From Chitinophagales bacterium (GTDB taxonomy: Bacteria; Bacteroidota; Bacteroidia; Chitinophagales; LD1), in assembly GCA_035299425.1 (NCBI GenBank), contig DATGWP010000160.1:4929-68928 (forward strand): a stretch of 64,000 nt of DNA, given 5' to 3'. This document shows positions 16,538-64,000 of this stretch, in pieces. Made by a program: the position numbers and the translations under genes. Below the pieces are notes generated by a model. That model saw only the letters and a list, made by a program, of their open reading frames with translations. It was not told where the DNA came from and did not search any database. Numbering within the stretch: position 1 is the first letter of the stretch; each line of letters starts with the position of its first letter.

Positions 16538-16591
16538 TATATCAAGCAAGGTGCAGGAAGGATGCATCATTTGGAACCCAAAAGTAATTGC

Positions 16592-50515: not shown

Positions 50516-51931
50516 ATGCCTAACAAAACGAACAATTCCCCACTTTACAATTATCTATTGGCCGTAGTGCTAATAGCTTTTGCCGCGTTAAAATTCAACG
50601 ACCTTTTTCTGCCCTATTTTTGGGATGAGTTGGGAGTCTACTCACAATGTGCCGTGTACCAGTACCACCATGGCATAAGCCTTATGCCTGCCTCATTGCC
50701 CGATTATATATCAAGGGGGCACCCGTTATTTCTTACCGTGATGAATGCCAGCATAATGAAATTTTTTGGCACAGCGGTTTATGTGCCTCATTCCCTGCAT
50801 TTGTTTATAGCTATCCTGCTTTTATTGGCGGTTTACAAGTACACCACGCGGTATTTTAACCGGTTAACGGGTTTAGTGGCAGTGGTGATACTTGCTGCGC
50901 AGCCTATCTTCATTACTCAATCCATCTTTTTGCTGCCCGAGGTGCTGTTATCCTTACTTATGTTTTACAGCCTTGTCAGCTATTTTGAAAAAAAATATAT
51001 CCTCTTTGGCCTGTTTGCCTCTCTGGCTATACTAACTAAAGAGAGTGCGGTTGTGCTTCCGGTAGTTGTATTTTCCTATTCGGTTTTAAGATGGCTTGTA
51101 ACACGGACGGGCAACGATGCATTCAATCCCCTGAATTTACTGGCCACTTTTATGCCCTATATTTTTTTCGGTGGATTTCTTCTTATTCAAAAGGCACAGA
51201 TGGGATGGTATTTTTTCCCATACCATATAAATAATACCGGTTTCAACGTAGAACAAACGTGGGAAAAATTCGCTGACTTTTTCCATTTTGCTTTTCACCG
51301 TCAGGGACGTTTTTGGTGGAACAGCATTTTTTTTACCGGTGCGATTTTAGCGTTGGCACGCAACCAACTAACCAAAGAAACGCTGCGATCAAACATACTG
51401 GTGCTATTTATAATTTTCATTTCGGGCTTTTTAGTGTTCAGTTCACTAAGCTTCTTTATGGAGCGTTATGTAGTAGTAGTAATTGTATTTTCATCTGTTA
51501 TAGTGGCCGTGGCCGTAGTCAATGTTCTTCAAAATAAAATCTTGATAGCTATATGTACTGCGCTATTGGCAATAACAGCCCTGAGCCATTTTGAATCGGA
51601 CAAATTCAATTATGATAATGATATGAGCTACCGGAAAGAGGTACAGAACCTACAGGCAATAGTTGACTCCTGCGCTACACTTTCAAAGGGTGAAGAACTT
51701 GTTTATGGAAATTTTCCGGCCTATTTTGCCCTAAATTTTCGCGAAGGAGGATATTTAAAACCCGATAAGCCGATTAAAGCCACTATGAACCTGGTAGACA
51801 GTGTAAAATACTTTATAACAACCTCACCCGGAGATAATATAAGGCAGGATGCACGGTTTAGGGATTCATTGATTGTGGAGATTAAAACAGATTATGCAGA
51901 AAGCAGGATATATTATCTGCATAGCAAGTAA
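50516..51931 (+). CDS. GT-C fold membrane glycosyltransferase (GT39/ArnT-like)
   Basis: About 11 TM helices with a first-loop acidic motif FWDELGVY, typical of lipid-linked-donor glycosyltransferases. Confidence 0.65.
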   Translation: MPNKTNNSPLYNYLLAVVLIAFAALKFNDLFLPYFWDELGVYSQCAVYQYHHGISLMPASLPDYISRGHPLFLTVMNASIMKFFGTAVYVPHSLHLFIAILLLLAVYKYTTRYFNRLTGLVAVVILAAQPIFITQSIFLLPEVLLSLLMFYSLVSYFEKKYILFGLFASLAILTKESAVVLPVVVFSYSVLRWLVTRTGNDAFNPLNLLATFMPYIFFGGFLLIQKAQMGWYFFPYHINNTGFNVEQTWEKFADFFHFAFHRQGRFWWNSIFFTGAILALARNQLTKETLRSNILVLFIIFISGFLVFSSLSFFMERYVVVVIVFSSVIVAVAVVNVLQNKILIAICTALLAITALSHFESDKFNYDNDMSYRKEVQNLQAIVDSCATLSKGEELVYGNFPAYFALNFREGGYLKPDKPIKATMNLVDSVKYFITTSPGDNIRQDARFRDSLIVEIKTDYAESRIYYLHSK

Positions 51932-51949
51932 TGAATCCCAAAAGTTTTA

Positions 51950-52891
51950 TCACTCTTTAGGAATATTAGCCAGCATATCCTTTGTCATTTTTGCCAAATC
52001 AAATTCCGGTTTCCAGCCCCAATCCTTTTGTGCTACGCTGTCGTCTATGCTCTGCGGCCAGCTTTCGGCGATTGCCTGGCGGAAATCGGGCTTGTAGGTA
52101 ATTTCGAATTCAGGTATATGCTTTTTAATTTCTGCCGCTACATCTTGGGGCGCAATGCTAAAACCGGAAAAGTTGTAACCTGAGCGGGTAGTAATTTTAT
52201 CTGCGGGCGCTTCCATCAAATCGATAGTACCGCGTATAGCATCGGGCATATACATCATGGGCAGGGTGGTATCTTCTTTTAAGAAACACTCATAGCTCTT
52301 CTTCTCTTTGGCCTCAAAGTATATTTCTACCGCATAGTCGGTGGTGCCGCCACCGGCTTTGGTTTTGTAGCTGATAAGGCCTGGATAGCGGATAGACCTT
52401 ACATCTAAGCCGCGTTTTTGAAAATACCAATCGCACCAGCGCTCGCCGGCCTGTTTGCTTATGCCGTAAATAGTATTGGGCTCCATTACTGTGAACTGAG
52501 GAGTATTAACCTTAGGGGTAGTAGGGCCAAACACGGCAATGGTAGAGGGGAAGAATAGTTTTTTGACCTGGTTCTCTACACATACATCGAGCACGTTGCG
52601 CAGGCCCTTCATGTTTATGCGCCACGCCATTTCGGGGTTCTTTTCGCCAGTAGCCGAAAGAATAGCCGCCAGATGATAAACCTGGTTAACCTTAAAGCGC
52701 TTTACAACATCGGCCAGGCCGTTTTTGTAAAGCACATCCAACCGGATAAACTCCCCGCCTTCTTTTAACTCCGGCGAGCCATCTTTAAGGTCGGAGGCTA
52801 TAACATTTTTATACATTTTACGGAGAGCTAAAACCAGTTCTGTTCCTATTTGTCCCCCTGCACCGGTAACCAGTATCGTGTCGTTTTGCAT
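51950..52891 (-). CDS. NAD-dependent epimerase/dehydratase-family SDR (L-threonine 3-dehydrogenase-like)
   Basis: ILVTGAGGQIGTELV Rossmann motif and YxxxK (YGISK). ATG at 52891 is preferred. Confidence 0.75.
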   Translation of the reverse strand: MQNDTILVTGAGGQIGTELVLALRKMYKNVIASDLKDGSPELKEGGEFIRLDVLYKNGLADVVKRFKVNQVYHLAAILSATGEKNPEMAWRINMKGLRNVLDVCVENQVKKLFFPSTIAVFGPTTPKVNTPQFTVMEPNTIYGISKQAGERWCDWYFQKRGLDVRSIRYPGLISYKTKAGGGTTDYAVEIYFEAKEKKSYECFLKEDTTLPMMYMPDAIRGTIDLMEAPADKITTRSGYNFSGFSIAPQDVAAEIKKHIPEFEITYKPDFRQAIAESWPQSIDDSVAQKDWGWKPEFDLAKMTKDMLANIPKE

Positions 52892-53027
52892 AATTACAGA
52901 TATACTATTGAGCGTTGTTGTGAGAACCAAAAGTAAAAAGTTTGCGTTTCTAACATTTGCTAATTTACCACAGGTGTATGAGCACATTAACACATTTTCC
53001 TATTTTCGGGCGCAATAAACTAATTAC

Positions 53028-55529
53028 ATGCAAAAACGAATTTTGCCCCATGTAGCCGCCGTGCTCACTTTTGCCTTACTTACAATTATATATTTCTACC
53101 CATACTATAAAGGCATGACACTGGGCGCCCATGATACCACCCAATGGAATGCCATGGCACAGGAGACAATAGCCTGGAAAGAAAAGACGGGAGAGCAAGC
53201 CCTATGGACCAACAGTATGTTTGGCGGTATGCCTACCTTTCAGATATCGGTTCTTTACCCCGGCAACTGGGTAAGCTATATCCCTAAAGCTTTTCAGCCG
53301 GTATTTCCCGAGGCATCGGCTTTACTGTTTTTCATGTTTACGGGCTTCTACATTTTGCTCCTTTGCTTTGGTATAAACCACTGGTTGGCATTAGCGGGGG
53401 CGCTGGCGTATGGCCTGGCATCGTTTAACCTGATAAGCATAGAAGCCGGACATAACACCAAAGTAATGGCTATGGCGCTGATGGCCCCGGCTATAGGGGG
53501 CATGGTGCTGGCCTACCGTGGCAAAATATTAATGGGTGCTGCAGTTACTGCTCTGTTTCTTTCATTAAATATTGACGCTAACCACTTTCAGATAACCTAT
53601 TACCTGTTGCTTACTATGGGTATGCTGGGTATTTATTTTTTGGCAGAAGCGGTTATTCAAAAAACGTTGCCAAATTTTGGAAAGGCAACGCTTGCGCTGA
53701 TACTTGTTTCGGGCCTGGCATTTGTGCCTAACGTAGCTAACTTATGGAGCACCTGGGAGTATGGCAAACAAACCATGCGCGGCGGGGGCAGCCAGCTGGC
53801 AGAAAAGAAAGCCACTAATAAGGGCGGTGGCCTGGATATAGAATACGCCACCCGCTGGAGCGAAGGTGCCAGCGACTTTGAATTTCTTTCGATACTTATA
53901 CCTAACATAAAAGGCGGAGCCTCGGGCAGTGAGCTATCAACCAATTCGGCATCTTACAAAGCATTGAGCGGAAACGGCATTCAATCGGCTGACAATATTG
54001 TAAAACGAATGCCTACCTACTGGGGCGACCAGCCGTTTACATCGGGGCCGGTTTATCTTGGAGCCGCTATATTTTTTCTTTTTGTTTTAGGATTAATGAT
54101 TGTTCGCTCGCCTATAAAATGGGCATTGCTGGCTATATCTATCTTCTTCCTTCTGTTATCGTTTGGACATAACACGCCATTCTTCGAATTGTGCTTTAAC
54201 CTGCTACCGGTATTCAATAAATTCCGTACGCCTACCATGGCGCTGGCAGTATTGCAGATAACCTTTCCGCTACTAGCCCTGCTGGCCATTAATGAAATAG
54301 TGACTGGTAAAGTAGCAGGTGAGGAACTAAAGAAAAAGCTATTTATAGCCGGTGGTGTAACAGCCGGTATCATTCTGATTTTTGGCTTATTTGGCATAGG
54401 TGCTGATTACAGCAGCAAAGGCGACCTGGAACTTGCCAAACAATTTCCGGATTGGTTGATGAAGGCGTTGAGAGAAGACCGTGCCAGCATGTTGCGTAGC
54501 GATGCTATGCGCTCCTTATTCTTTGCCGGTACTGCCTTTGGCGCCATCTGGCTTTATATGCGCAAAACAATTTCTACAAACATATTGGCTCTAACGCTGG
54601 GTGCTATCTTTTTACTGGATGGATGGTTAGTAGCTAACCGGTACCTAAACGCTGATGATTTTCAGGAAGATGCACAGTTTGCACAAAACTTTCAGCCATC
54701 GCAAACCGACCTGCAAATTTTACAGGATAAAGACCTTAGCTATCGTGTATATGACCAAACGGTTGACCCATTCAACACCGCATCGCCTGCTTATTTCCAT
54801 AAACTGGTAGGCGGTTATAGCCCTGCCAAGCTACAGATATACCAGGACCTGATAGAGCGCCAGATTTCACAACGCAACCCTAAGGTATTTGATATGCTTA
54901 ACACCAAATATTTTAAGGTAGCTGATGAAAAGGGTAATGAGCGCGTAATACCAAATACTGCGGCCCTTGGCAATGCCTGGTTAGTAAGCAACATACTGCA
55001 TGTAAGCACTGCCGATGAAGAAATTGACACATTAGATGCAATTACATTTGACCCACGCACCACAGCTGTTATACATAAAGAGTTTGATGCATTGGTATCT
55101 GACAAATCATTAGGCAACGACTCAGCTGCCAGTATACGCCTAGAAACCTACTCGCCTAACAAACTTACCTACGCATATAACTCTGCCACACCGCAGGTAG
55201 CAGTGTTTTCGGAGATATACTATGCCGGTGAGCATGGATGGAAAGCCTATATAGACGGCAAAGAAACGCCACATTTCCGTGCCAACTATGTGTTGCGCGC
55301 TATGGCGTTGCCAGAAGGGAAGCACACCGTTGAATTCCGTTTTGAGCCAAAATCGTACTACACCGGTAACAAGATTGCGTATGCAGGTTCGTTTTTGCTG
55401 CTGGCTTTTGTTTTCGGTACACTTGGCTTTGGCGGCTACAAGCGCATGAAAGAAATACAAAGCGAACCACAAGCACCGGTTAAACCAACTGTAACACCTA
55501 CAGCGAAGCCAACAACAAAAAAGAAGTGA
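53028..55529 (+). CDS. YfhO-family membrane (glycosyl)transferase
   Basis: 833 aa. Multi-TM N-terminal two-thirds, extracytoplasmic C-domain, terminal TM helix. Confidence 0.75.
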   Translation: MQKRILPHVAAVLTFALLTIIYFYPYYKGMTLGAHDTTQWNAMAQETIAWKEKTGEQALWTNSMFGGMPTFQISVLYPGNWVSYIPKAFQPVFPEASALLFFMFTGFYILLLCFGINHWLALAGALAYGLASFNLISIEAGHNTKVMAMALMAPAIGGMVLAYRGKILMGAAVTALFLSLNIDANHFQITYYLLLTMGMLGIYFLAEAVIQKTLPNFGKATLALILVSGLAFVPNVANLWSTWEYGKQTMRGGGSQLAEKKATNKGGGLDIEYATRWSEGASDFEFLSILIPNIKGGASGSELSTNSASYKALSGNGIQSADNIVKRMPTYWGDQPFTSGPVYLGAAIFFLFVLGLMIVRSPIKWALLAISIFFLLLSFGHNTPFFELCFNLLPVFNKFRTPTMALAVLQITFPLLALLAINEIVTGKVAGEELKKKLFIAGGVTAGIILIFGLFGIGADYSSKGDLELAKQFPDWLMKALREDRASMLRSDAMRSLFFAGTAFGAIWLYMRKTISTNILALTLGAIFLLDGWLVANRYLNADDFQEDAQFAQNFQPSQTDLQILQDKDLSYRVYDQTVDPFNTASPAYFHKLVGGYSPAKLQIYQDLIERQISQRNPKVFDMLNTKYFKVADEKGNERVIPNTAALGNAWLVSNILHVSTADEEIDTLDAITFDPRTTAVIHKEFDALVSDKSLGNDSAASIRLETYSPNKLTYAYNSATPQVAVFSEIYYAGEHGWKAYIDGKETPHFRANYVLRAMALPEGKHTVEFRFEPKSYYTGNKIAYAGSFLLLAFVFGTLGFGGYKRMKEIQSEPQAPVKPTVTPTAKPTTKKK

Positions 55530-56803
55530 GTACTAAAAAGGTCCTGATTTTCACCTACTACTTCCCCCCTGCCGGTGGCGTGGCCGTGCAGCGTTTTCTA
55601 AAGTTTAGCAAATATCTGCCGGAGTTTGGCTGGGAGCCGATAATAGTAAGCGTAGAAAACGGTAGCTATCCATACTATGATGAGTCACTGCTGAACGAGC
55701 TTTCGCCATCGTTAAAAGTTTACCGCACCAAAACATTCGAGCCTTTTGAGTTTTATAATTTATTGAAAGGAAAGAAAGGCAAAGCCATGCCGGTAGTATC
55801 GGTAGGTTCGCATCAAAAGCGCTCCTTGTTTCAGCAGACATCGGAATACATAAGGGCAAATTTCTTTATACCCGATGCGCGCAAAGGCTGGGTGCCGTAT
55901 GCTGTAAAACAGGGAGAGGATATAATCAAGAGCCAGAAGATTGACGCTATAATAACTACCGGCCCGCCTCATTCTACACACCTGATAGGGTTACAACTAA
56001 AGCAAAAATATGGAGTAAAATGGGTAGCCGATTTCCGTGACCCGTGGACGGGCATATTTTATAACAACATACTGCCCCGCACAGAAAGCACCAAACGAAA
56101 AGATAAGGCCCTGGAAACACAGGTACTACAAACCGCCGACCTGGTTACCGTAATAAGCCCAGGAATGAAAAAGGAATTTGAAGCCCGGGCCAAGAAGATT
56201 GAAGTAGTGATGAATGGTTACGACCATGAAGATTTTGCCAATACCATAACCCGCAAAGAGGATGTATTTACTATCCGCTATGTAGGCAACCTGATGGCCA
56301 GCCAAAATGTAGAAGCGCTTTGGAAAGCACTAGCAAAATACAAGGGCGAATTTAAACTTGAACTAATAGGACGAGTAGATGATGCGGTGAAGAATAGTAT
56401 TACAGAAAGTGGCATAAGCGAATATGTGCGTTATGTTGACTTTGTGGGCCACAAAAAGGCTATAGAGCTAATGCAACAAGCAGATATGCTGTTATTTGTA
56501 ATACCCGATGTAAAGGATGGCGCGCTGATATTAACGGGTAAATTGTTTGAATACCTGGCCAGTAAAACCGAGTTAATCTCCTTTGGCCCTGTGAATGGCA
56601 ATGCGGCAGAAATATTGCAACAAACAGGTCGTAAAAACATGCTGGCTTTTACTGATACTAATGAAACAGCGAAACAAGTTGAATCGGCATTGAGCCATTT
56701 TAAACAAACAAAGACTGCGTTTAAATACTCTGATACTAAAGCGGAAGTATTTAGCAGGAAGAACCAGGCGGGGAAGTTGGGGGAGTTGCTGGCAGGGTTA
56801 TAG
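55526..56803 (+). CDS. GT-B glycosyltransferase (family 4-like)
   Basis: KVLIFTYYFPPAGGVAVQR N-terminus. The GTG start overlaps the YfhO stop (GTGA). Confidence 0.7.
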   Translation: MSTKKVLIFTYYFPPAGGVAVQRFLKFSKYLPEFGWEPIIVSVENGSYPYYDESLLNELSPSLKVYRTKTFEPFEFYNLLKGKKGKAMPVVSVGSHQKRSLFQQTSEYIRANFFIPDARKGWVPYAVKQGEDIIKSQKIDAIITTGPPHSTHLIGLQLKQKYGVKWVADFRDPWTGIFYNNILPRTESTKRKDKALETQVLQTADLVTVISPGMKKEFEARAKKIEVVMNGYDHEDFANTITRKEDVFTIRYVGNLMASQNVEALWKALAKYKGEFKLELIGRVDDAVKNSITESGISEYVRYVDFVGHKKAIELMQQADMLLFVIPDVKDGALILTGKLFEYLASKTELISFGPVNGNAAEILQQTGRKNMLAFTDTNETAKQVESALSHFKQTKTAFKYSDTKAEVFSRKNQAGKLGELLAGL

Positions 56804-57859
56804 CTTAATAAGTCCATTACAAAGTTCAAGCAGCTTTTGTTTACGAACATCAAGCGTGTAATTCGATACAATTCGCTCGCGCGCTTTTGACTGCAATGCT
56901 ACTTTATCTGTACTTAGTGCAGTTTTAATAGTATTCTTTAATTCATCCACATTCCTGTTTTTTAGCACAAGGCCACTATCCCCAATTATTTCGGGTATTG
57001 AAAAAACATTGGAGCCAATAGGAATGCATTGACAAAGCATAGCCTCGCAAAGAGAGTTAGGAAAACCTTCGGCCATTGATAATTGCAAGTAAAATTCGCA
57101 TTCGCTAAAAATAGCTATCAGTTCTTCGTTCTTAACGGCAGACAGCACTGTTACATTATGAGGTTTAGTAGTTATACGGCTATCACTATCTACCCCCAAT
57201 ATTATAAACTCGCAATCGGGAAATTGCGGAGCTACTTCCAGTATTAAATCGATGCCCTTTAGCTTTTGCTGAAAGTGATACTCCCATGCGCCACTAACGG
57301 TGATGAAGGTGTTTTTCTTCTTCTCTTTAATGCAATGCCATTTAACTGTATCGTATCCATTTGTAATTTCTGTAAACGGTGTATGTAATTTTGGCAAGCG
57401 CGCGTATATGCCTTGTTGTGAGGGCTCGCCGGCAGCATAGGTATACTCACATTGCATTAGGGTTTTATGCTTGGGTGCAATATGTGAACACAACCGGAAT
57501 GAAAGAGCAGTAAATGTTTTAAGAACAGGCTTTTGCCAATTGCCATAACCAATACCCGGAAAATAATGGGCATCGGTACCACCCACTACAATTAGACAAG
57601 GCACCCTGAAAAACCAGCCTGACAAAGCAGGTAATAAGGAATGATAACCGGCAAATTGAACAACTAGCAAATCAACCTTACTTATATTGATGAGAACAAA
57701 GAAAAGTTGCGACAAAAAACTTAACGGCGTGTGCAGTTTAGTGGCTGGCAAAAAATCGTGCCCCTTTACGTTATACTGCGCCGACAGAATTTCAATATCC
57801 TTTTTTACAAAAGAAGAAAGATGGTTATAGAAAAACAGGACGTTCTTCTTGTTACTCAA
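56798..57859 (-). CDS. GT-B glycosyltransferase (family 1/4)
   Basis: EGFPNSLCEAMLCQCIPIGSNV (EX7E region). Confidence 0.72.
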   Translation of the reverse strand: MSNKKNVLFFYNHLSSFVKKDIEILSAQYNVKGHDFLPATKLHTPLSFLSQLFFVLINISKVDLLVVQFAGYHSLLPALSGWFFRVPCLIVVGGTDAHYFPGIGYGNWQKPVLKTFTALSFRLCSHIAPKHKTLMQCEYTYAAGEPSQQGIYARLPKLHTPFTEITNGYDTVKWHCIKEKKKNTFITVSGAWEYHFQQKLKGIDLILEVAPQFPDCEFIILGVDSDSRITTKPHNVTVLSAVKNEELIAIFSECEFYLQLSMAEGFPNSLCEAMLCQCIPIGSNVFSIPEIIGDSGLVLKNRNVDELKNTIKTALSTDKVALQSKARERIVSNYTLDVRKQKLLELCNGLIKL

Positions 57860-57966: not shown

Positions 57967-59133
57967 ATGATAGAATTAAACACGCAAGAAAAGAAATTGG
58001 CTGAAAGATTTCATCAGCTAAAGCAGGAAGCGGGTTCGCATTCGCCCAGTATTTTTACGTTTAAGCAAAAATTGCCTGAGTTAGATATTAAAGTAGACGC
58101 TTGCTTTTTATCTAACCCCTATGCTACCGACCTCTTTCTTTCTTATTTTAAAAGAGAGGTAATGGATACGGATAAAATACGTGAGTTGCTGGAGTTTTAC
58201 CCATCGCAAAACACGGTGATAGCCGAACTACTGGGCAATTTTTTGAAAGTTCACCCGGAACAGATTTTTGTGGGAAATGGGGCTATAGAGGTTATACAAG
58301 CCGTGTTACACAACTTTACCAAAAAGAAGATACTGATTAACATCCCTACATTTTCGTCGTACTACGAGTTTGTAAAAGAAGGCATAGAGGTGATTTATAA
58401 TAACCTGAAAAAGGAAAATGATTACCGGTTAGATACCCAGGACCTGGTAACCAAGGTAAAAGAAACCCATCCCGATACGGTTGTAATAATAAACCCTAAC
58501 AACCCGGATGGAGGATATATACCAGTAGCCGCTTTGCAGGATTTACTGCAAGAGCTAAAAAATGTAGAAACCATAATACTGGATGAAAGCTTTATACACT
58601 TTGCGTACGAAGACAGTTCATTTGACCCTATTAATACGCAGGCGCTTATTGAAAAATACCCGAACCTGGTGATTATTAAAAGTATGAGCAAGGATTTTGG
58701 TATAGCCGGTGTAAGGTCCGGATACGGTGTAATGAGTAAAGAACGCGTAAGCGCCTTAATAAAGAATGGTTACTTGTGGAACTCGAACGGATTAAGTGAA
58801 TTTTTCTTCCGCTTGTACGTGCGAGAAGATTTTGCCCGGGATTATGAACAAGTAAGAAAAAGATATATAACAGATACAATTGAGTTTATCCAACAGCTAT
58901 CTGAGTTACAAGGAATAAAAGTGCTGCCAAGCAAGGCCAATTTTGTACTGGTAGAAATATTAAACAATGTAACATCGATGGAATTGGTAGTAGCGCTCTT
59001 GATTAAGCATGGTATATATGTGCGTACGGCTAACGATAAAATTGGTTTGCAGGGAGAATACATAAGAGTAGCATCGAGAACAAAGGAAGAAAATGCTGTA
59101 ATGGTGCAGGCTTTCCGCGAATTGCTTGCTTAA
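57967..59133 (+). CDS. class I/II PLP-dependent aminotransferase/decarboxylase (HisC/CobD-like)
   Basis: NPNNPDG and PLP-lysine motif SMSKDFGIAGVRSGY. Confidence 0.82.
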   Translation: MIELNTQEKKLAERFHQLKQEAGSHSPSIFTFKQKLPELDIKVDACFLSNPYATDLFLSYFKREVMDTDKIRELLEFYPSQNTVIAELLGNFLKVHPEQIFVGNGAIEVIQAVLHNFTKKKILINIPTFSSYYEFVKEGIEVIYNNLKKENDYRLDTQDLVTKVKETHPDTVVIINPNNPDGGYIPVAALQDLLQELKNVETIILDESFIHFAYEDSSFDPINTQALIEKYPNLVIIKSMSKDFGIAGVRSGYGVMSKERVSALIKNGYLWNSNGLSEFFFRLYVREDFARDYEQVRKRYITDTIEFIQQLSELQGIKVLPSKANFVLVEILNNVTSMELVVALLIKHGIYVRTANDKIGLQGEYIRVASRTKEENAVMVQAFRELLA

Positions 59134-59178
59134 TATTATTCAGATTCAACCCGACATCCATAACCCGTAAAATACAAA

Positions 59179-59724
59179 GTGATAAGAGGCGTTTTCAATT
59201 TCGTGTGTGGTTATTTTTTTCTCATACTATTTCGCATAAAATCGAAATTGAATGACGATAAGCACCTGTATGTTTTTGATATTGACAATACCATTGGAGA
59301 CACCTACCCTACTCTGAATCAGAAGTATGCAACCGAAAAAGAAAGATTGCTTTCTATACCTGTTTTTCCAAGAATTAAGAATCTGCTTTCCGGTCTTTTG
59401 AAGTCAAGAAGCCGTAAGGTTATTTTTCTTACATCGCGCTCATATCTTACCTGGGCTGTTACCCATCAGTGGATTAAAAACAATGGATTAGAGGTAAGTC
59501 TAACCGATGTAATTATTGTTTCTTCCCCTGGCCAAAAAATAGAATTTCTCAGTAAAATTCTACCCCGTAAACGGGATGTAACTTTTATTGACGATTTGAG
59601 CTGGAACCACGAAAAGGGCGATGTAAAATTTTACAGTAGCGAAATTGAATTAATTTCGGGCCTTCCATTGCGCTATGTGGGTTACAATACCATAAAGCGC
59701 TTTAACTCGAAAACTAAAAAGTGA
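59179..59724 (+). CDS. HAD-superfamily phosphatase-like protein
   Basis: Motif I FDIDNT (DxDxT), motif II LTSRS, motif IV FIDDL. GTG start. Confidence 0.6.
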   Translation: MIRGVFNFVCGYFFLILFRIKSKLNDDKHLYVFDIDNTIGDTYPTLNQKYATEKERLLSIPVFPRIKNLLSGLLKSRSRKVIFLTSRSYLTWAVTHQWIKNNGLEVSLTDVIIVSSPGQKIEFLSKILPRKRDVTFIDDLSWNHEKGDVKFYSSEIELISGLPLRYVGYNTIKRFNSKTKK

Positions 59725-60788
59725 AAGGATTCTTATACCGTAATGTTAAGCGCTTAATCAGGCTGTATTACACCTTTAAAACAGTTAACTGGTTGCAGTT
59801 TTTCCGCCTGCACTCGAAAGATGCAGGTATAGTAGTGCTGATGCGCCCTCAGTTAAAAAGTATTTTCAAAGATACATTTGAACCGGATATCGTTTTGATT
59901 GGTGTGATAGTAAAAATGGGATTGCCACTACGGGTATACCGGGGCAATAAGTATGGTCAGTTTTACGACAAAACAATTGTTTTTAACGCCAGCTACCTGT
60001 TTAACGAACACCAGTTTCAAAACTATAGTTCGTACCAGGCGTATGTAATGAAACAGCTGGAATACCAGGGCAATAATGTGTTTCCGGGGGCAGATGAAAT
60101 TGTATACTGGGAGAATAAAGAATACATGTATAACAAGTTTAAAGAGCTTGGCATACGCCATCCCGATACTTCTATTTTTCATTCGTACGAAGATTTTAAG
60201 CAGGCTAACCTTAAGTTCCCATTGCTTATAAAAGAGGCACACTCACACGCTGCCGAAGGTGTGTTTAAAGTAAACTCAGCAGAGGATGCCGAGAAGCTTT
60301 TAACCAGCGAACGCTTTAAAAGAGATAACCGGGTAATTATAGCCCAGCAGTTGTTGAATATGCGCAAAGACCTGCGGGTGACGGTACTGGGTGATGAAAT
60401 TATATTGCACTACTGGCGCACTAATCCATCTAAAGAATGGAAGCCGACCTCTACCAGCCATGGCAGCGATGTGGATTTTATAACCTTTCCGGAAAAATGG
60501 AGGAGTTACTTTATAGACGTAAACAAAAAATTAAAGCTGGCTTCGGGTGGTTATGATTATGCATGGGAAAACGACGACCTGGAAACACAACCAATTTGCC
60601 TTGAGGTAAGCCCCACCTATCAGCCAAACCCAACCTTTGATGTAAAAGGAACAACGTATACTTATGGGCAGTGGAAGAAAAAGCTATTACTGAAAGACTC
60701 GTGGGATGAGGCGTATGTGAAATGTTATTTCGACATACGTTATAAGTTGTTTAGCAGATACTTTAAACAGAAAGGGATAATTAAATAG
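59721..60788 (+). CDS. ATP-grasp domain protein (putative amide ligase)
   Basis: FPLLIKEAHSHAAEGVFKV.., IIAQQLL, RVTVLGDEII pattern. The GTG start overlaps the HAD gene stop (GTGA). Confidence 0.55.
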   Translation: MKGFLYRNVKRLIRLYYTFKTVNWLQFFRLHSKDAGIVVLMRPQLKSIFKDTFEPDIVLIGVIVKMGLPLRVYRGNKYGQFYDKTIVFNASYLFNEHQFQNYSSYQAYVMKQLEYQGNNVFPGADEIVYWENKEYMYNKFKELGIRHPDTSIFHSYEDFKQANLKFPLLIKEAHSHAAEGVFKVNSAEDAEKLLTSERFKRDNRVIIAQQLLNMRKDLRVTVLGDEIILHYWRTNPSKEWKPTSTSHGSDVDFITFPEKWRSYFIDVNKKLKLASGGYDYAWENDDLETQPICLEVSPTYQPNPTFDVKGTTYTYGQWKKKLLLKDSWDEAYVKCYFDIRYKLFSRYFKQKGIIK

Positions 60789-60805: not shown

Positions 60806-62275
60806 ATGGGCATAATACAGCGGCAAGGCATTAAAAACACCATCAGCTCATACCTGGGCATTCTTCTAGGCTTTGTATCGCTTATTATAATACAGCCCAA
60901 ATTTCTTAAACCAGAAGAGATTGGTTTGGCGCGGGTACTTTTTGCTTTTTCTACCTTAATAGCAAGTTTTATCCCAATAGGGGTAACCAATATGACTATT
61001 AAGTATTTCCCTTATTTCAGAAACCACAAGAACGGGCACAACGGCTTCTTCGGGTTTATGCTTATTTTTCCCATTATAGGGTTCATCATTTCAGCATCAG
61101 GGTTATATATATTCCGTGATTTTGTGATTGCCCAGTACCGCCGCGAATCGCCTTTGATCATTGATTTTTACAACTACATTTTTCCTTTCAGTTTGTTTAT
61201 TGCATTTTCTACAGTTGTTACCACTTACCTTATTGCATTATTTAAAAGCACAGTACCATCCTATATAAATGATCTATATACCCGCTTGGCATACATAGGG
61301 TTAATATTCCTGTATTACTTCAACTACCTTACACTTGGGCAATTTATGGGTGCTTATGTAGGTATTTATAGCGTACAGTTACTACTACTTATATTTTATC
61401 TGGTAAAAGAAGACAAGCCATCGCTGATTATAAATTGGGATTTTTTCAAACAACAAGGACTTAAGGAGATGATAAGCTTTGGCCTGCTGCTTTCCTTTTC
61501 ATCAATAGCAGCGCTTGGGTTAAAAACACTCGACTCGGTTTTGATAGGTAAATTTCTACCGCTCAGTTTTGTAGGTATTTATGCCATTGCTTCGTTTATA
61601 CCCACTATTATAGAAACCCCACTTAATGCTTTAGACAGGATTGTAACAGCAAAAGTGGCACATGCCATTGTAGAGAATGATATAGCAGAAGTAAAAGATG
61701 TTTTTTACAAATCAGTTAAATACCTTTCTCTTATAGGTGCACTACTTTTTGTGGGTATAAACTGCAATATCACTTTCTTGCTTTCGCTAGTTGGAAAAGA
61801 CTTTGAGCAAGGCTATGAAGTGGTATGGATAATATCTGTAGGAGCACTGATAAATATGATGGGCGGGGCTAACGGTTCCATTGTTTTTTATTCTTCTAAA
61901 TACTGGCAGGGGGCGCTCTTATTATTACTACTGGTTGTTATTACCTTTGCCTGCAACATGCTTCTTATTCCGCGTTTTGGAATAAATGGAGCCGCCATGA
62001 GCACCGCTATCTCTTCGTTATTATATACAGGAATAAGGCTATTTATTACGCATCGCAAGTTTGGGTTTCAGCCATTTGATATTAATACAGTTAAAACGAT
62101 TGCCATCCTGCTTTTCTGCCTTGCATTGAACTATGTGTTGCCTGTTTTTAGTTCAGCCATCCTTAACATCATATTCAGAAGTGTTGTTTTAGGAGGTTCC
62201 TTTTTGGTAATTACTTACTTTCTAAAAATAGTTCCGGAATTCCATCATTTTCTGCCCTGGGAGAGAAACAAGTAA
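60806..62275 (+). CDS. oligosaccharide flippase (Wzx/MOP family)
   Basis: 489 aa with about 14 TM helices. Confidence 0.8.
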   Translation: MGIIQRQGIKNTISSYLGILLGFVSLIIIQPKFLKPEEIGLARVLFAFSTLIASFIPIGVTNMTIKYFPYFRNHKNGHNGFFGFMLIFPIIGFIISASGLYIFRDFVIAQYRRESPLIIDFYNYIFPFSLFIAFSTVVTTYLIALFKSTVPSYINDLYTRLAYIGLIFLYYFNYLTLGQFMGAYVGIYSVQLLLLIFYLVKEDKPSLIINWDFFKQQGLKEMISFGLLLSFSSIAALGLKTLDSVLIGKFLPLSFVGIYAIASFIPTIIETPLNALDRIVTAKVAHAIVENDIAEVKDVFYKSVKYLSLIGALLFVGINCNITFLLSLVGKDFEQGYEVVWIISVGALINMMGGANGSIVFYSSKYWQGALLLLLLVVITFACNMLLIPRFGINGAAMSTAISSLLYTGIRLFITHRKFGFQPFDINTVKTIAILLFCLALNYVLPVFSSAILNIIFRSVVLGGSFLVITYFLKIVPEFHHFLPWERNK

Positions 62276-62383
62276 GGGAATACAGTTATTCCCTTACTGC
62301 AACCTGATTAAGCTTTCCTCATATCAAATTTGCTTAATACAATAATTTATTACCTTTACCGCCGAACCTTAAACCCCGAACCT

Positions 62384-64000
62384 ATGAAAAGAATTTACAC
62401 TATTGTAATTCTGGCTTGCTTTTTCGGCACCGCCAGTGCTCAACACGAATTTGATAAATGGATTTTTGGCAACGGATTGGGACTGGACTTTACCAGCGGT
62501 ACTGCCACCCCATTTACCAGCACAATTAATGCCTGGGATAATGCAGCAAGCATAGCCGACGCAAACGGCAACCTGTTGTTTTATTCTGAAGGATTAAGGA
62601 TATATGACCGAAATGGGACAGTAATGCCACATGGTTCAGGCCTATTGGCAGACACCAGCGGTGGCCAACCTGCAACAATTGTACGCAAACCAGGCAGTGA
62701 AAACCTTTACTATGTATTTACCTGTCCAAACTTTGGAGGCGCAAATGGCCTGCGATATACAGTAGTGGATATGACCCTAAACGGAGGGTTGGGCGATGTA
62801 GATACAAATAACAAAAACATACTTTTTTATACACCTACGGCAGAAAAGCTTGTGCCTGTGGTGCATGCCAATGGATATGATATCTGGATTTTGGCGCACG
62901 AATGGGGCACAAATACATTTAGATCATATTTACTTACTGCCAATGGTTTTGTATCCAACTATGTTGCATCTACAATAGGCTCGGTACATGGTGGCAATGT
63001 TAACAATGCTGTAGGGCAGCTAACTGTAAGTAAGGATGGCTCGCGGGTGGCCTGCTGTATGTTTAACGATGGAAAGATTGAGATATTTAATTTTAACAGA
63101 CAAAGCGGTGTGCTGACCAATGCTAAAACTATTACCGGTTATAGTGGAGTATTGGGTCTTGAGTTTTCGCCCGATGGCTCTAAATTATATGCTACACGCT
63201 ATCTGGGGCCAAATATCACCCAATTTGACCTGAGCAATTTTACGCAAAGCGCTATTATAGCTTCTGCCAGTACTGTTGGCACAATACCTACCATATGGGG
63301 CAATTATTATGGCGGTTACATGACCCTGGGTCCTGATGATAAAATATATGTAGCTCAAAGCTTTAACAACAAAGTAGGGGTAATAAACAATCCCAATGCA
63401 CTCGATTCTGCCTGCAACTATGATGGCAACGCACTGAATTTTGGTAGCCGGAAAAATGACGCCGGCCTGGTAGATAAGATTGCCGTAACGCCGGTAAATT
63501 ATTCAGTACACGTTGAAATTGGCAATTCTCAAACTATTTGCAATAGCAGTTATATAATTTTCGACCCGCAGGTTACCAATGGTGTGCCTCCGCTTACTTA
63601 TGCATGGACGGCTACCGGCGACCAGCTAAGCTGCAGCAACTGTAAACACCCGGGTGTAACCGTAGGGCAAAATTCGACATACATATTAACCGTAACTGAC
63701 GCGAATGGTAAAACGGGCACAGATACCGTTGAGTTTACAACCTCTGGAACTACCAGCACACTAGGCTTAGCGCTTGTAAAACTGAACAACATAGATTGTA
63801 ACCATTCGGTTGATAGCACCAGAGGTGAAGTAACCAATGGAACGGAACCTATAAACTACCATTGGGGCGATGGCAGCAACCAGGTAGGTACATCTTCTGA
63901 ATTACACATGTATTCGGCGGCTGGTATTTATGTAGTATCGGTAACCGATGCCACCGGATGTATTAATTCGGCATTTGATACGGTGATAAACGCAGGGATT
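62384..64000 (+). CDS. secreted beta-propeller/Ig-repeat surface protein (5' partial, runs off window)
   Basis: Not in the ORF track. ATG at 62384, signal peptide MKRIYTIVILACFFGTASAQ, open for 539 codons to the window end. Ig-like repeats (PPLTYAWTATGD..TVTDANG; INYHWGDG..VSVTDATG) are typical of T9SS cargo. Confidence 0.7.
   Translation, partial: MKRIYTIVILACFFGTASAQHEFDKWIFGNGLGLDFTSGTATPFTSTINAWDNAASIADANGNLLFYSEGLRIYDRNGTVMPHGSGLLADTSGGQPATIVRKPGSENLYYVFTCPNFGGANGLRYTVVDMTLNGGLGDVDTNNKNILFYTPTAEKLVPVVHANGYDIWILAHEWGTNTFRSYLLTANGFVSNYVASTIGSVHGGNVNNAVGQLTVSKDGSRVACCMFNDGKIEIFNFNRQSGVLTNAKTITGYSGVLGLEFSPDGSKLYATRYLGPNITQFDLSNFTQSAIIASASTVGTIPTIWGNYYGGYMTLGPDDKIYVAQSFNNKVGVINNPNALDSACNYDGNALNFGSRKNDAGLVDKIAVTPVNYSVHVEIGNSQTICNSSYIIFDPQVTNGVPPLTYAWTATGDQLSCSNCKHPGVTVGQNSTYILTVTDANGKTGTDTVEFTTSGTTSTLGLALVKLNNIDCNHSVDSTRGEVTNGTEPINYHWGDGSNQVGTSSELHMYSAAGIYVVSVTDATGCINSAFDTVINAGI

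What the first reader, a model, noticed from the sequence alone, without database searches (positions are those of the whole stretch)
57967..60788. PLP enzyme + HAD phosphatase + ATP-grasp trio next to a flippase: candidate amide-decoration module for a uronic-acid polysaccharide
Three co-oriented genes are involved, and the last two are translationally coupled by a GTGA overlap at 59721-59724:
- A HisC/CobD-like PLP enzyme (NPNNPDG, SMSKDFG).
- A small HAD protein with an intact DxDxT motif (FDIDNT), plus LTSRS and FIDDL motifs.
- An ATP-grasp protein.

They are embedded among GT-B glycosyltransferases, directly upstream of a Wzx-type flippase.

From memory of the biochemically characterised Campylobacter jejuni HS:2 capsule genes Cj1435-Cj1438:
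- A PLP aminotransferase or decarboxylase makes serinol phosphate or ethanolamine phosphate.
- An ATP-grasp amidoligase attaches it to glucuronate.
- A HAD phosphatase removes the phosphate.

The same three enzyme classes are clustered here. I infer an analogous amino-alcohol or amino-acid amide modification of a surface glycan. I am not aware of one described for Sphingobacteriia.
Basis: partly seen in the sequence, partly recalled or inferred. Interest (0 to 1): 0.65.

Follow-up and report, generated by a model that had tools for sequence, protein, structure and literature searches.

The report
Ethanolamine-amide glycan decoration cassette
Three tightly linked genes in a Chitinophagales surface-sugar locus most likely make ethanolamine phosphate, join it by an amide bond to an acidic sugar and then remove the phosphate; this is the chemistry known from the Campylobacter capsule, but two of the three enzymes come from different, uncharacterised families.

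Summary
Three co-oriented genes sit at 57967-60788: a PLP enzyme, a small DxDxT protein and an ATP-grasp protein. They are followed by a Wzx flippase, with a GTGA stop/start overlap at 59721-59724.

- **PLP enzyme:** 52% identical over its full length to the positional Cj1436 orthologue in a Campylobacter capsule locus. It is 47% identical to PDB 6OUX (SMUL_1544-type). This points to L-serine-phosphate decarboxylase activity giving ethanolamine phosphate.
- **ATP-grasp protein:** not related to the Campylobacter ligase Cj1438C (TupA-like). It belongs to a small uncharacterised RimK/LysX-like family.
- **Small protein:** not related to Cj1435. It is a minimal HAD-fold phosphatase with an N-terminal hydrophobic helix and no Pfam family.
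- **Linkage:** the trio is present in 47 of 52 informative loci from Bacteroidota and metagenomes, always among polysaccharide genes.
- **Fusions:** distant relatives are fused as grasp-HAD, HAD-grasp and GT8-grasp-HAD.

My reading is an amino-alcohol amide decoration cassette that works like Cj1435-1438 but was assembled from non-orthologous parts.

The acceptor sugar is unknown, and no UDP-sugar dehydrogenase lies in this window.

Verdict: a new variant of a known kind, of moderate interest, and directly testable.

The parts
57967..59133 (+). PLP-dependent enzyme, predicted L-serine-O-phosphate decarboxylase (makes ethanolamine phosphate). Public annotation 'histidinol-phosphate transaminase' is probably wrong.
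   Evidence: Pfam PF00155, E 8.9e-45. Below the NCBIfam cut-offs for both HisC (171 vs 276) and CobD (167 vs 290). PDB 6OUX 'threonine phosphate decarboxylase-like enzyme', E 3.6e-121 over the full length, 47% identity. 52% identity to L004:5776-6945, the positional Cj1436 orthologue. 53% identity to the H. equorum homologue beside a Cj1435 homologue.
59179..59724 (+). Minimal HAD-fold phosphatase with an N-terminal hydrophobic helix (residues 2-24); predicted to remove the phosphate from the amide-linked ethanolamine phosphate.
   Evidence: Invariant D34, D36, T38 (DxDxT), T85/S88, K120 and D138-D139 in 20 homologues. AlphaFold pLDDT 93.7. Foldseek top hits are 5'(3')-deoxyribonucleotidases, class C acid phosphatases, Pnkp1 and Nir2 LNS2, E about 1e-4. 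The L058 homologue passes Pfam PF03767. No similarity to Cj1435. Kyte-Doolittle 19-residue mean is 1.65 at residues 2-20.
59721..59724 (+). GTGA stop/start overlap coupling the phosphatase and ligase genes.
   Evidence: Sequence read. Overlaps of 4, 17, 4 and 8 nt are seen in the homologous gene pairs of L001, L002, L028 and L029.
59721..60788 (+). ATP-grasp ligase of an uncharacterised RimK/LysX-like family; predicted amidoligase joining ethanolamine phosphate to a glycan carboxylate.
   Evidence: Pfam RimK 28 bits (cut-off 21). NCBIfam rimK_fam 49.9, below the 143.4 cut-off. AlphaFold pLDDT 92. Foldseek hits are ArgX/LysX, RimK, PsnB and Ddl, E 1e-15 to 1e-11, TM about 0.5. K171 aligns with the VanA nucleotide-binding strand. 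The family has 152 representatives at E<=1e-30 among 1.84 billion proteins. No similarity to Cj1438C. Relatives are fused to HAD and GT8 domains.
60806..62275 (+). Wzx-type (MOP) flippase, last gene of the apparent four-gene operon.
   Evidence: Pfam Polysacc_synt 34.3 bits (cut-off 28.2) and Polysacc_synt_3. NCBIfam MOP flippase hits are weak. It starts 17 bases after the ATP-grasp stop.
62271..62298 (.). 12-bp perfect inverted repeat overlapping the flippase stop codon; probable end of the transcription unit.
   Evidence: AGTAAGGGAATAACTGTATTCCCTTACT. Function as a terminator is inferred only.
56798..57859 (-). GT4 (GT-B) glycosyltransferase, divergently transcribed from the cassette.
   Evidence: Pfam Glycos_transf_1, E 7.3e-17.
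55526..56803 (+). GT4 (GT-B) glycosyltransferase; its start overlaps the stop of the YfhO-like gene.
   Evidence: Pfam Glyco_transf_4 and Glycos_transf_1; coordinates.
53028..55529 (+). YfhO-like polytopic membrane protein (context; part of the same glycan locus).
   Evidence: Pfam YfhO 34.3 bits (cut-off 28.5), C-terminal part only.
50516..51931 (+). PMT_2 (ArnT/GT-C-like) membrane glycosyltransferase (context).
   Evidence: Pfam PMT_2 28.5 bits (cut-off 26.1).

Best explanation
The four genes PLP-HAD-ATP-grasp-wzx form a decoration cassette inside a Wzx-dependent surface-glycan locus.

Proposed steps:
1. The PLP enzyme decarboxylates O-phospho-L-serine, the ordinary serine-pathway intermediate, to ethanolamine phosphate. 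This is inferred from homology.
2. The ATP-grasp ligase activates a carboxylate of a sugar acid on the growing, probably lipid-linked, glycan as an acyl phosphate. It then forms an amide with the amino group of ethanolamine phosphate. This is inferred from ATP-grasp chemistry and gene linkage.
3. The small membrane-associated HAD phosphatase removes the phosphate, leaving an N-(2-hydroxyethyl) amide. This is inferred.
4. All three steps need cytoplasmic ATP or metabolites, so they would precede flipping by the adjacent Wzx.

This is the same logic as Cj1436, then Cj1438C, then Cj1435 in the C. jejuni HS:2 capsule. Only the decarboxylase is orthologous. The ligase and phosphatase are non-orthologous replacements from other families of the same superfamilies.
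For: **PLP enzyme**
- It is 52% identical (0 gaps, E 2e-156) to L004:5776-6945.
- That gene lies between a GT2+TupA-grasp Cj1438 homologue and a Cj1435 homologue (60% identity). The Campylobacter locus is syntenic with HS:2: Ugd, Glf, Cj1438-like, aminotransferase, PLP, HAD.
- It is 47% identical to PDB 6OUX. The 6OUX molecule name equals the annotation of SMUL_1544.
- The SMUL_1544 product governs norcobamide synthesis, and norcobamides have an ethanolamine linker.
- Cj1436 decarboxylates L-Ser-P to ethanolamine-P. Cj1438C amidates GlcA with it. Cj1435 then removes the phosphate (PMC11800397 and PMC12409886).

**Linkage**
- The trio keeps the same order in Tenacibaculum singaporense, Pedobacter and three other genomes.
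- In 84 related loci, 37 show PLP-small-grasp, 3 show grasp-PLP-small and 7 show the trio with spacing or frame noise. That is 47 of 52 informative loci.
- In 34 loci of at least 10 kb, the trio genes are the only near-constant ones (32, 29 and 29 loci). The neighbours are variable glycan genes: GT4 in 22, SDR in 18, AsnB-like in 13, Bac_transf in 9 and UGD in 6.

**Fusions**
- Grasp+HAD proteins of about 466 aa, a HAD+grasp protein of 487 aa, and GT8+grasp+HAD proteins of 864 and 871 aa.
- These parallel the GT2+grasp fusion in Cj1438.

**Variant cassettes**
- Some variants swap the PLP enzyme and keep the ligase and phosphatase. L099 has a class-V aminotransferase in its place.

**Catalytic motifs and folds**
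- These are intact for the HAD and ATP-grasp proteins.
Against: - No enzyme of this cassette has been assayed.
- The ligase and phosphatase have no detectable homology to the Campylobacter enzymes, so their roles rest on superfamily chemistry plus linkage.
- No UDP-glucose or UDP-ManNAc dehydrogenase, or WecB, is in the window. Only 6 of 34 related loci have one nearby. The acceptor carboxylate is therefore unidentified.
- Cj1436 itself was not available for direct comparison; a positional orthologue was used.
- The serine-phosphate activity of SMUL_1544 is taken from my memory of Keller et al. 2016/2019, which I could not read.
- The nearest structural neighbours of the ligase (ArgX/LysX, RimK) act on protein C-termini.
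- The order of ligation and dephosphorylation is assumed by analogy.
Confidence: 0.55

Rival explanations
1. Same cassette logic, but a different amine. The PLP enzyme decarboxylates L-threonine phosphate (as CobD does) or another phospho-amino acid. The glycan then carries an aminopropanol or other amino-alcohol amide.
For: The enzyme scores almost equally against the NCBIfam CobD model (167 bits) and the HisC model (171 bits). Solved CobD structures are hit at E about 1e-20. Substrate-determining residues were not analysed.
Against: Its close relatives, at 47-53% identity, are the Cj1436-position genes and 6OUX/SMUL_1544. Both are linked to ethanolamine products. Salmonella CobD is far more distant.
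Confidence: 0.1
2. The ligase does not act on a sugar acid. It joins ethanolamine phosphate (or another amine) to a carboxylate of a protein C-terminus, a peptide, an amino acid or a lipid head group, as its RimK/LysX/ArgX-like fold would suggest. The product may be used elsewhere in the envelope.
For: The best structural matches are ArgX/LysX, RimK and PsnB, all of which act on peptide or protein carboxylates. No uronic-acid gene is in the window. The HAD protein has a membrane-anchor-like helix, which also fits a lipid substrate.
Against: Every context examined is a polysaccharide locus with GTs, Wzx, Wzy and initiating transferases. Two relatives are fused to a GT8 glycosyltransferase. Identity to RimK/LysX is only 13-20% in the Foldseek matches, and the NCBIfam cut-offs are far from met.
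Confidence: 0.12
3. The PLP enzyme is a true aminotransferase, as publicly annotated (histidinol-phosphate transaminase) or like Cj1437, which makes serinol phosphate. The ATP-grasp protein then attaches that product or an amino acid.
For: The public name is 'histidinol-phosphate transaminase'. HisC is the top NCBIfam model. Decarboxylases and aminotransferases of this fold cannot be told apart by Pfam.
Against: The score is 171 bits against a HisC cut-off of 276. Identity to the Cj1437-position aminotransferases is only 22-28% (L004 299-aa gene, L008 second gene), against 52-53% to the Cj1436-position genes. The gene is fixed in a glycan cassette, not a his operon.
Confidence: 0.06
4. The order of steps differs. 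The HAD enzyme first hydrolyses ethanolamine phosphate to free ethanolamine, and the ligase uses that. Alternatively, the phosphate is kept on the glycan and the HAD protein has another substrate.
For: Nothing in the sequence fixes the order. HAD phosphatases of this minimal, cap-less type often take large or varied substrates.
Against: In the only characterised system the ligase uses the phosphorylated amine and the phosphatase acts on the amide product. Ligase and phosphatase are translationally coupled and repeatedly fused, which fits consecutive action on one bound intermediate.
Confidence: 0.1
5. The three genes are neighbours by chance and have unrelated functions.
For: None beyond the lack of experiments.
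Against: The trio is present in 47 of 52 informative loci at 30-65% protein identity, in two gene orders, with conserved start/stop overlaps and several fusions.
Confidence: 0.01

Closest known systems
C. jejuni HS:2 glucuronamide pathway: Cj1436 (L-Ser-P decarboxylase), Cj1437 (DHAP transaminase), Cj1438 C-terminal domain (ATP-dependent amidoligase), Cj1435 (HAD phosphatase)
   Same: Same three enzyme classes and the same inferred order of chemistry. The PLP decarboxylase is orthologous: 52% identity to the positional Cj1436 orthologue. Ligase-glycosyltransferase fusions occur in both systems (GT2+grasp in Cj1438; GT8+grasp+HAD here in relatives).
   Different: The ligase is RimK/LysX-like, not TupA-like PF14305. 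The phosphatase is a cap-less, NT5C/acid-phosphatase-B/LNS2-like HAD with a hydrophobic N-terminal helix, not PF12710. There is no second PLP enzyme for serinol-P. The locus is Wzx-type rather than a Kps ABC-transporter capsule. No Ugd is in the locus. The host is Bacteroidota rather than Campylobacterota.
SMUL_1544 (PDB 6OUX) and CobD: phospho-amino-acid decarboxylases of cobamide nucleotide-loop synthesis, working with the amide-forming CbiB
   Same: Full-length homology (E 3.6e-121, 47% identity). The same idea applies: an amino-alcohol phosphate is made by decarboxylation and then amide-linked to a carboxylate.
   Different: No cobamide genes are nearby. The amide ligase is an ATP-grasp protein rather than CbiB. 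A phosphatase gene is attached, so the phosphate is presumably removed rather than used for nucleotide-loop assembly.
RimK / LysX / ArgX ATP-grasp ligases
   Same: Closest solved folds (Foldseek E 1e-15 to 1e-12). The chemistry is the same: a carboxylate is activated as an acyl phosphate and attacked by an amine.
   Different: Identity is only 13-20%. The scores are far below the NCBIfam family cut-offs. The protein has an extra N-terminal 100 residues and a C-terminal helix. It forms a separate family of about 150 representatives. The gene context is glycan synthesis, not ribosomal protein S6 or LysW.
MfnA/MfnD of methanofuran synthesis (PLP decarboxylase plus ATP-grasp amide ligase; from my own knowledge, not checked here)
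   Same: A decarboxylase-made amine is joined to a carboxylate by an ATP-grasp enzyme.
   Different: That is a small-molecule cofactor pathway in archaea, with no phosphate handle, no phosphatase and no glycan context.

Membership tests
C. jejuni HS:2-type glucuronamide module (Cj1435-Cj1438) | PLP L-serine-phosphate decarboxylase homologous to Cj1436 | tested here: met
   52% identity, 388 aligned residues, no gaps, to the gene in the Cj1436 position of a syntenic Campylobacter locus. The Cj1436 sequence itself was not available.
C. jejuni HS:2-type glucuronamide module (Cj1435-Cj1438) | TupA-like ATP-grasp amidoligase (PF14305), as in the C-terminal domain of Cj1438 | tested here: not met
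   BLASTP E 0.98. Cj1438C hits PF14305 at 1.3e-37, while the window protein hits only RimK/Ddl weakly. hhalign probability is 2.4%.
C. jejuni HS:2-type glucuronamide module (Cj1435-Cj1438) | HAD phosphatase of the Cj1435 type (PF12710) | tested here: not met
   BLASTP E 0.19. Cj1435 hits PF12710 at 1.7e-20, and the window protein has no Pfam hit. hhalign probability is 0.1%, aligning motif I only.
C. jejuni HS:2-type glucuronamide module (Cj1435-Cj1438) | UDP-glucose dehydrogenase in the same locus to supply the uronic acid | tested here: not met
   tblastn of the three Tenacibaculum (L001) UDP-sugar dehydrogenases and WecB found nothing in the 64 kb window. The rest of the genome was not available.
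C. jejuni HS:2-type glucuronamide module (Cj1435-Cj1438) | Amide-linked ethanolamine or serinol present on the polysaccharide | not testable with these tools
   Needs NMR or MS of the glycan. No report for Bacteroidota was found in the held literature.
CobD/SMUL_1544-type phospho-amino-acid decarboxylases (fold-type I, PF00155) | PF00155 domain with the PLP lysine, and full-length similarity to a solved member | tested here: met
   PF00155, E 8.9e-45. 6OUX, E 3.6e-121, residues 4-387 aligned to 6-389, with SMSKDFG aligned to SLSKDFG.
CobD/SMUL_1544-type phospho-amino-acid decarboxylases (fold-type I, PF00155) | Reaches the curated CobD (TIGR01140) or HisC (TIGR01141) equivalog cut-off | tested here: not met
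   167 bits against 290.55, and 171 bits against 276.55. It is neither a bona fide CobD nor a HisC.
ATP-grasp superfamily, RimK/LysX branch | ATP-grasp fold with the nucleotide-binding lysine strand | tested here: met
   AlphaFold pLDDT 92. Foldseek hits are ArgX, RimK, LysX and Ddl. FPLLIKEAHS aligns with VanA YPVFVKPARS. K171, D279 and E295 are invariant in 69 sequences.
ATP-grasp superfamily, RimK/LysX branch | Membership of the curated RimK family (TIGR00768 cut-off) | tested here: not met
   49.9 bits against a cut-off of 143.4. It is a separate family of 152 representatives at E<=1e-30.
HAD superfamily phosphatases | Motifs I-IV (DxDxT, S/T, K, DD) and a Rossmannoid fold | tested here: met
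   D34, D36, T38, T85, K120 and D138-D139 are invariant. The model has pLDDT 93.7 and its top Foldseek hits are HAD phosphatases.
HAD superfamily phosphatases | Match to a curated HAD family model | tested here: inconclusive
   The window protein has no hit at E<=0.01; its best is Acid_phosphat_B at E 0.053. A homologue in L058 passes PF03767 (30.9 against 27), and fused relatives hit NT5C or LNS2.

The most novel reading that the evidence does not exclude
Bacteroidota carry a mobile three-gene cassette built around a previously uncharacterised ATP-grasp family and a previously unclassified membrane-anchored mini-HAD family. The cassette installs hydroxyethyl-amide (ethanolamine amide) groups on sugar acids of Wzx-dependent surface glycans. 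This modification is not reported for the phylum.

It arose by keeping a horizontally shared Ser-P decarboxylase and independently recruiting the ligase and the phosphatase. Together with the class-V aminotransferase variant (L099), the methyltransferase variant (L058) and the PHP/CapK-like variant (L111), this would define a general, modular 'amine-phosphate / ligase / phosphatase' grammar for glycan amidation.
Probability: 0.45. Interest if true: 0.6.

Novelty: new variant of a known kind. Interest (0 to 1): 0.5.

Why it matters
- Amide capping of uronic acids removes negative charge and changes antigenicity, phage and antibody recognition, and cation binding of surface glycans.
- The only biochemically solved route, in C. 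jejuni HS:2, is recent, and its ligase was hard to spot.
- This locus predicts that the same chemistry exists in three Bacteroidota classes (Chitinophagia, Sphingobacteriia, Flavobacteriia), using a different ligase and phosphatase.
- It would give a function to an unannotated ATP-grasp family (about 150 clusters at 50% identity) and to a small protein with no family.
- It would correct a widespread 'histidinol-phosphate transaminase' annotation.
- It provides a genetic marker for predicting amidated glycans from genomes.
- The prediction can be tested with three recombinant proteins and commercially available substrates.

Tried and rejected
- **Direct comparison with the Campylobacter enzymes.** I took Cj1438C and Cj1435 from the supplement of PMC11800397. 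Neither pairwise nor profile comparison found any similarity. I therefore rejected membership in the Cj system for the ligase and the phosphatase.
- **Primary papers.** Cj1436 and Cj1437 sequences, and the Raushel and Keller primary papers, were not held. I spent the one genome scan on Cj1438C to fetch syntenic Campylobacter and Helicobacter loci instead.
- **Identity to 6OUX.** I first guessed about 58% from the HMMER alignment. BLASTP gives 47%.
- **Rest of the MAG contig.** I looked for it to find a Ugd gene, but exact-protein look-ups failed.
- **Sequence searches against PDB.** For the small protein, single-sequence and profile searches gave only noise. Only the fold search was informative.
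- **Literature.** Searches for amide-linked ethanolamine in Bacteroidota glycans, or for ATP-grasp genes in O-antigen clusters, gave nothing relevant.
- **Promoter scan.** The sigma-70 scan was no better than shuffles (13 against 14.0) and does not apply to Bacteroidota.
- **Rejected readings.** I considered and rejected housekeeping HisC or CobD (below cut-offs, fixed glycan context) and chance adjacency.


Full report
**1. What is in the sequence**

ORF listing confirms three co-oriented genes:
- 57967-59133, 388 aa.
- 59179-59724, 181 aa.
- 59721-60788, 355 aa.

A fourth gene follows at 60806-62275 (489 aa), after a 17-base gap.

The second and third genes overlap by GTGA.

A 12-bp perfect inverted repeat sits on the stop codon of the fourth gene, at 62271-62298. 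The upstream gene, a GT4 at 56798-57859, is on the other strand. The four genes therefore look like one transcription unit; this is inference.

Pfam results:
- Gene 1: Aminotran_1_2.
- Gene 3: weak RimK/Ddl ATP-grasp.
- Gene 4: Polysacc_synt (Wzx-type).
- Gene 2: nothing.

The wider locus holds two GT4 enzymes, a YfhO-like protein and a PMT_2 membrane protein. The PLP protein is 100% identical to one from a Chitinophagales MAG, where it is annotated as histidinol-phosphate transaminase.

**2. The PLP enzyme**

It scores below the curated cut-offs of both HisC and CobD.

Against solved structures, the outstanding hit is 6OUX, 'threonine phosphate decarboxylase-like enzyme'. The match has E 3.6e-121 and is full length. 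Identity is 47% by BLASTP; an earlier impression of about 58% was wrong.

That molecule name is the annotation of SMUL_1544 in Sulfurospirillum. The product of that gene governs synthesis of norcobamides, which have an ethanolamine linker. The L-serine-phosphate decarboxylase assay itself is from my memory of Keller et al., which I could not read.

I used the sequence of Cj1438C to fetch Campylobacterota loci. I found a Campylobacter locus, L004, syntenic with HS:2. Its order is Ugd, Glf, GT2+TupA-grasp, aminotransferase, PLP, HAD. The PLP gene in the Cj1436 position is 52% identical to the window protein over 388 residues without a gap. The Helicobacter equorum equivalent is 53% identical.

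These values match the identities among the Bacteroidota trio PLP proteins themselves, which are 51-64%. The Cj1437-position aminotransferases are only 22-28% identical.

Cj1436 is established as the L-Ser-P decarboxylase that makes ethanolamine phosphate (PMC11800397, PMC12409886). The window enzyme is therefore most likely the same.

**3. The ligase**

Cj1438C belongs to Pfam ATPgrasp_TupA (1.3e-37). The window protein shows no similarity to it, by BLASTP (E 0.98) or by profile-profile comparison (probability 2.4%).

Its AlphaFold model has pLDDT 92. The model is closest to ArgX/LysX, RimK, PsnB and Ddl, with 12-20% identity. A profile search of PDB sequences finds only the nucleotide-binding segment: FPLLIKEAHS aligns with VanA YPVFVKPARS.

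An exhaustive profile search of 1.84 billion representatives gave the following counts:

| E-value threshold | Proteins |
|---|---|
| 1e-30 | 152 |
| 1e-10 | 322 |
| 1e-3 | 2360 |

This is a small, discrete, unnamed family. Where sources give a name, it is 'hypothetical' or 'RimK-type ligase-like'.

**4. The small protein**

It has no Pfam, NCBIfam or PDB sequence match. It has no similarity to Cj1435, which is PF12710.

Twenty homologues keep D34, D36 and T38 (DxDxT), T85, K120 and D138-D139 invariant. The Asp at position +2 is the signature of HAD phosphotransferases; this point is general knowledge.

The model has pLDDT 93.7. It is a cap-less Rossmannoid preceded by a helix at residues 2-24. 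Foldseek returns 5'(3')-deoxyribonucleotidases, class C acid phosphatases, the Pnkp1 phosphatase domain and the Nir2 LNS2 domain.

One homologue (L058) passes Pfam Acid_phosphat_B, and others give weak LNS2 or NT5C hits.

The N-terminal helix is hydrophobic (Kyte-Doolittle 1.65 over 19 residues). It is conserved across homologues, and the public gene call that starts at residue 24 drops it.

**5. Linkage**

The order PLP-small-grasp, with overlapping small and grasp genes, recurs in these loci:
- Tenacibaculum singaporense.
- Two MAG or metagenome genomes.
- A close syntenic relative, L028.
- Pedobacter.

A metagenome scan with the ligase alignment returned 80 loci. HMM and phmmer annotation classified 84 loci in all: these 80 plus the four above other than Pedobacter:

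| Arrangement | Loci |
|---|---|
| PLP-small-grasp | 37 |
| grasp-PLP-small | 3 |
| All three, with spacing or frame noise | 7 |
| small-grasp at a contig end | 15 |
| Informative exceptions | 5 |

That makes 47 of 52 informative loci.

Unbiased clustering of all ORFs in 34 loci of at least 10 kb showed the trio genes as the only near-constant families, in 32, 29 and 29 loci. Next come GT4 (22), SDR epimerase-like (18), AsnB-like amidotransferase (13), initiating transferase (9) and UDP-sugar dehydrogenase (6).

The trio therefore behaves as a portable decoration cassette inside otherwise variable polysaccharide loci.

**6. Fusions and variants**

Among distant family members, several fusions occur:
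- Grasp+HAD proteins of about 466 aa, with the HAD part matching the small-protein HMM at about 1e-11.
- A HAD+grasp protein of 487 aa.
- Two GT8+grasp+HAD proteins of 864 and 871 aa.

The fusions tie the ligase and phosphatase to consecutive steps and to glycosyl transfer. Cj1438 shows the same pattern by fusing a GT2 to its ligase.

Two variants keep the ligase and phosphatase but change the first enzyme. L099 has a class-V aminotransferase, and L058 has a SAM methyltransferase.

In L111 the decarboxylase sits next to a 431-aa protein with a faint AMP-binding hit and a PHP phosphoesterase, with no ATP-grasp or HAD gene in the 17 kb locus examined. This may be a third solution to the same three roles, but it is only a lead.

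**7. Mechanism**

The best reading has four steps:
1. Ser-P is decarboxylated to ethanolamine-P.
2. An ATP-grasp acyl-phosphate mechanism forms an amide with a glycan carboxylate.
3. The HAD protein removes the phosphate.
4. Wzx flips the product.

What is shown: homology of the decarboxylase, the folds and motifs of the other two proteins, their linkage and fusions, and the glycan context.

What is inferred: every catalytic step, the order of steps, and the identity of the acceptor.

The acceptor is the weakest point. The window has no Ugd or WecB. T. singaporense has three UDP-sugar dehydrogenases and WecB immediately upstream, but most loci do not. The frequent AsnB-like amidotransferases hint that carboxylate-bearing sugars are common in these glycans, though this is indirect.

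**8. Comparison and novelty**

The module works like the C. jejuni HS:2 Cj1436/Cj1438C/Cj1435 module. It fails membership for two of the three proteins, lacks a locus-encoded Ugd, and is Wzx-linked rather than Kps-linked.

It also echoes CobD/SMUL_1544 with CbiB, where an amino-alcohol phosphate is amide-linked to a carboxylate. From memory, MfnA/MfnD follows the same idea.

I found no description of this cassette, or of ethanolamine-amide glycans in Bacteroidota, in the held literature. That is not proof of absence.

I rate it a new variant of a known kind. It is a clean case of non-orthologous displacement around a shared decarboxylase, with a clear experimental test. Interest is 0.5.

Noticed in passing
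window 59179-59247: The public gene call for the small protein (P0241, 158 aa) starts at residue 24 and drops the N-terminal hydrophobic helix. That helix is conserved in 16 of 20 homologues and modelled at pLDDT 90-98. The longer GTG-start ORF is probably the real one.
   Followed up: partly
L111:5930-10086 (contig carrying the PLP protein that NCBI names for Aquaticitalea lipolytica): The Ser-P-decarboxylase-like gene here has no ATP-grasp or HAD partner. It is preceded by a PHP-family phosphoesterase and a 431-aa protein with a faint AMP-binding (CapK/PaaK-like) hit, and flanked by WecB and UDP-sugar dehydrogenases. This may be a third, independent ligase and phosphatase solution.
   Followed up: partly
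L099:3968-8268: A distant member of the ATP-grasp family (about 31% identity) is followed by a class-V (Aminotran_5) PLP enzyme, a small-protein-like gene and a GT4, next to a Wzx. This is the same cassette layout with a different amine-making enzyme.
   Followed up: partly
L058:8397-10870: The cassette lacks the PLP gene. A SAM methyltransferase sits directly upstream of the HAD and ATP-grasp genes (Wzx-MT-HAD-grasp-GT4). This HAD homologue is the only one seen to pass a Pfam HAD model (Acid_phosphat_B, 30.9 bits).
   Followed up: partly
proteins P0393 (871 aa), P0402 (864 aa), P0383/P0387/P0392/P0395 (about 466 aa), P0391 (487 aa): These are natural fusions: GT8+ATP-grasp+HAD, ATP-grasp+HAD and HAD+ATP-grasp. 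P0393 is very Asn/Lys/Ile-rich, so it comes from an AT-rich organism of unknown identity. Its genomic context could not be fetched.
   Followed up: partly
34 related loci (L001-L106): AsnB-like (glutamine amidotransferase / asparagine synthase) genes lie within 10 kb of the trio in 13 of 34 loci. That is more often than UDP-sugar dehydrogenases (6 of 34). Two kinds of carboxylate amidation may coexist in these glycans.
   Followed up: no
window about 62380-64000 (runs off the end): A long ORF with a signal-peptide-like start (MKRIYTIVILACFFGTASAQ) follows the flippase. A homologue lies in the syntenic locus L028, near a Por_Secre_tail (T9SS) protein. Any relation to the glycan locus is unknown.
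   Followed up: no
window 50516-55529: Two GT-C-type or polytopic membrane proteins (PMT_2 at 50516-51931, YfhO-like at 53028-55529) flank an SDR gene on the opposite strand (51950-52993; best NCBIfam hit is D-erythronate dehydrogenase at 102 bits, below the 325 cut-off). No Wzy polymerase or initiating transferase was recognised in the window, so the product may be a short glycan rather than a polymer.
   Followed up: no
Cj1435 sequence (supplement of PMC11800397) and L004:6950-7573: The Campylobacter HAD phosphatase Cj1435 has FDFCET at motif I, with Cys where HAD phosphatases usually have the second Asp. The window protein has the canonical FDIDNT.
   Followed up: no
window 16562-21799 and 34925-34995: A 1745-aa ORF on the + strand was not examined. 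The only Rfam hit in the window is one tRNA on the - strand.
   Followed up: no
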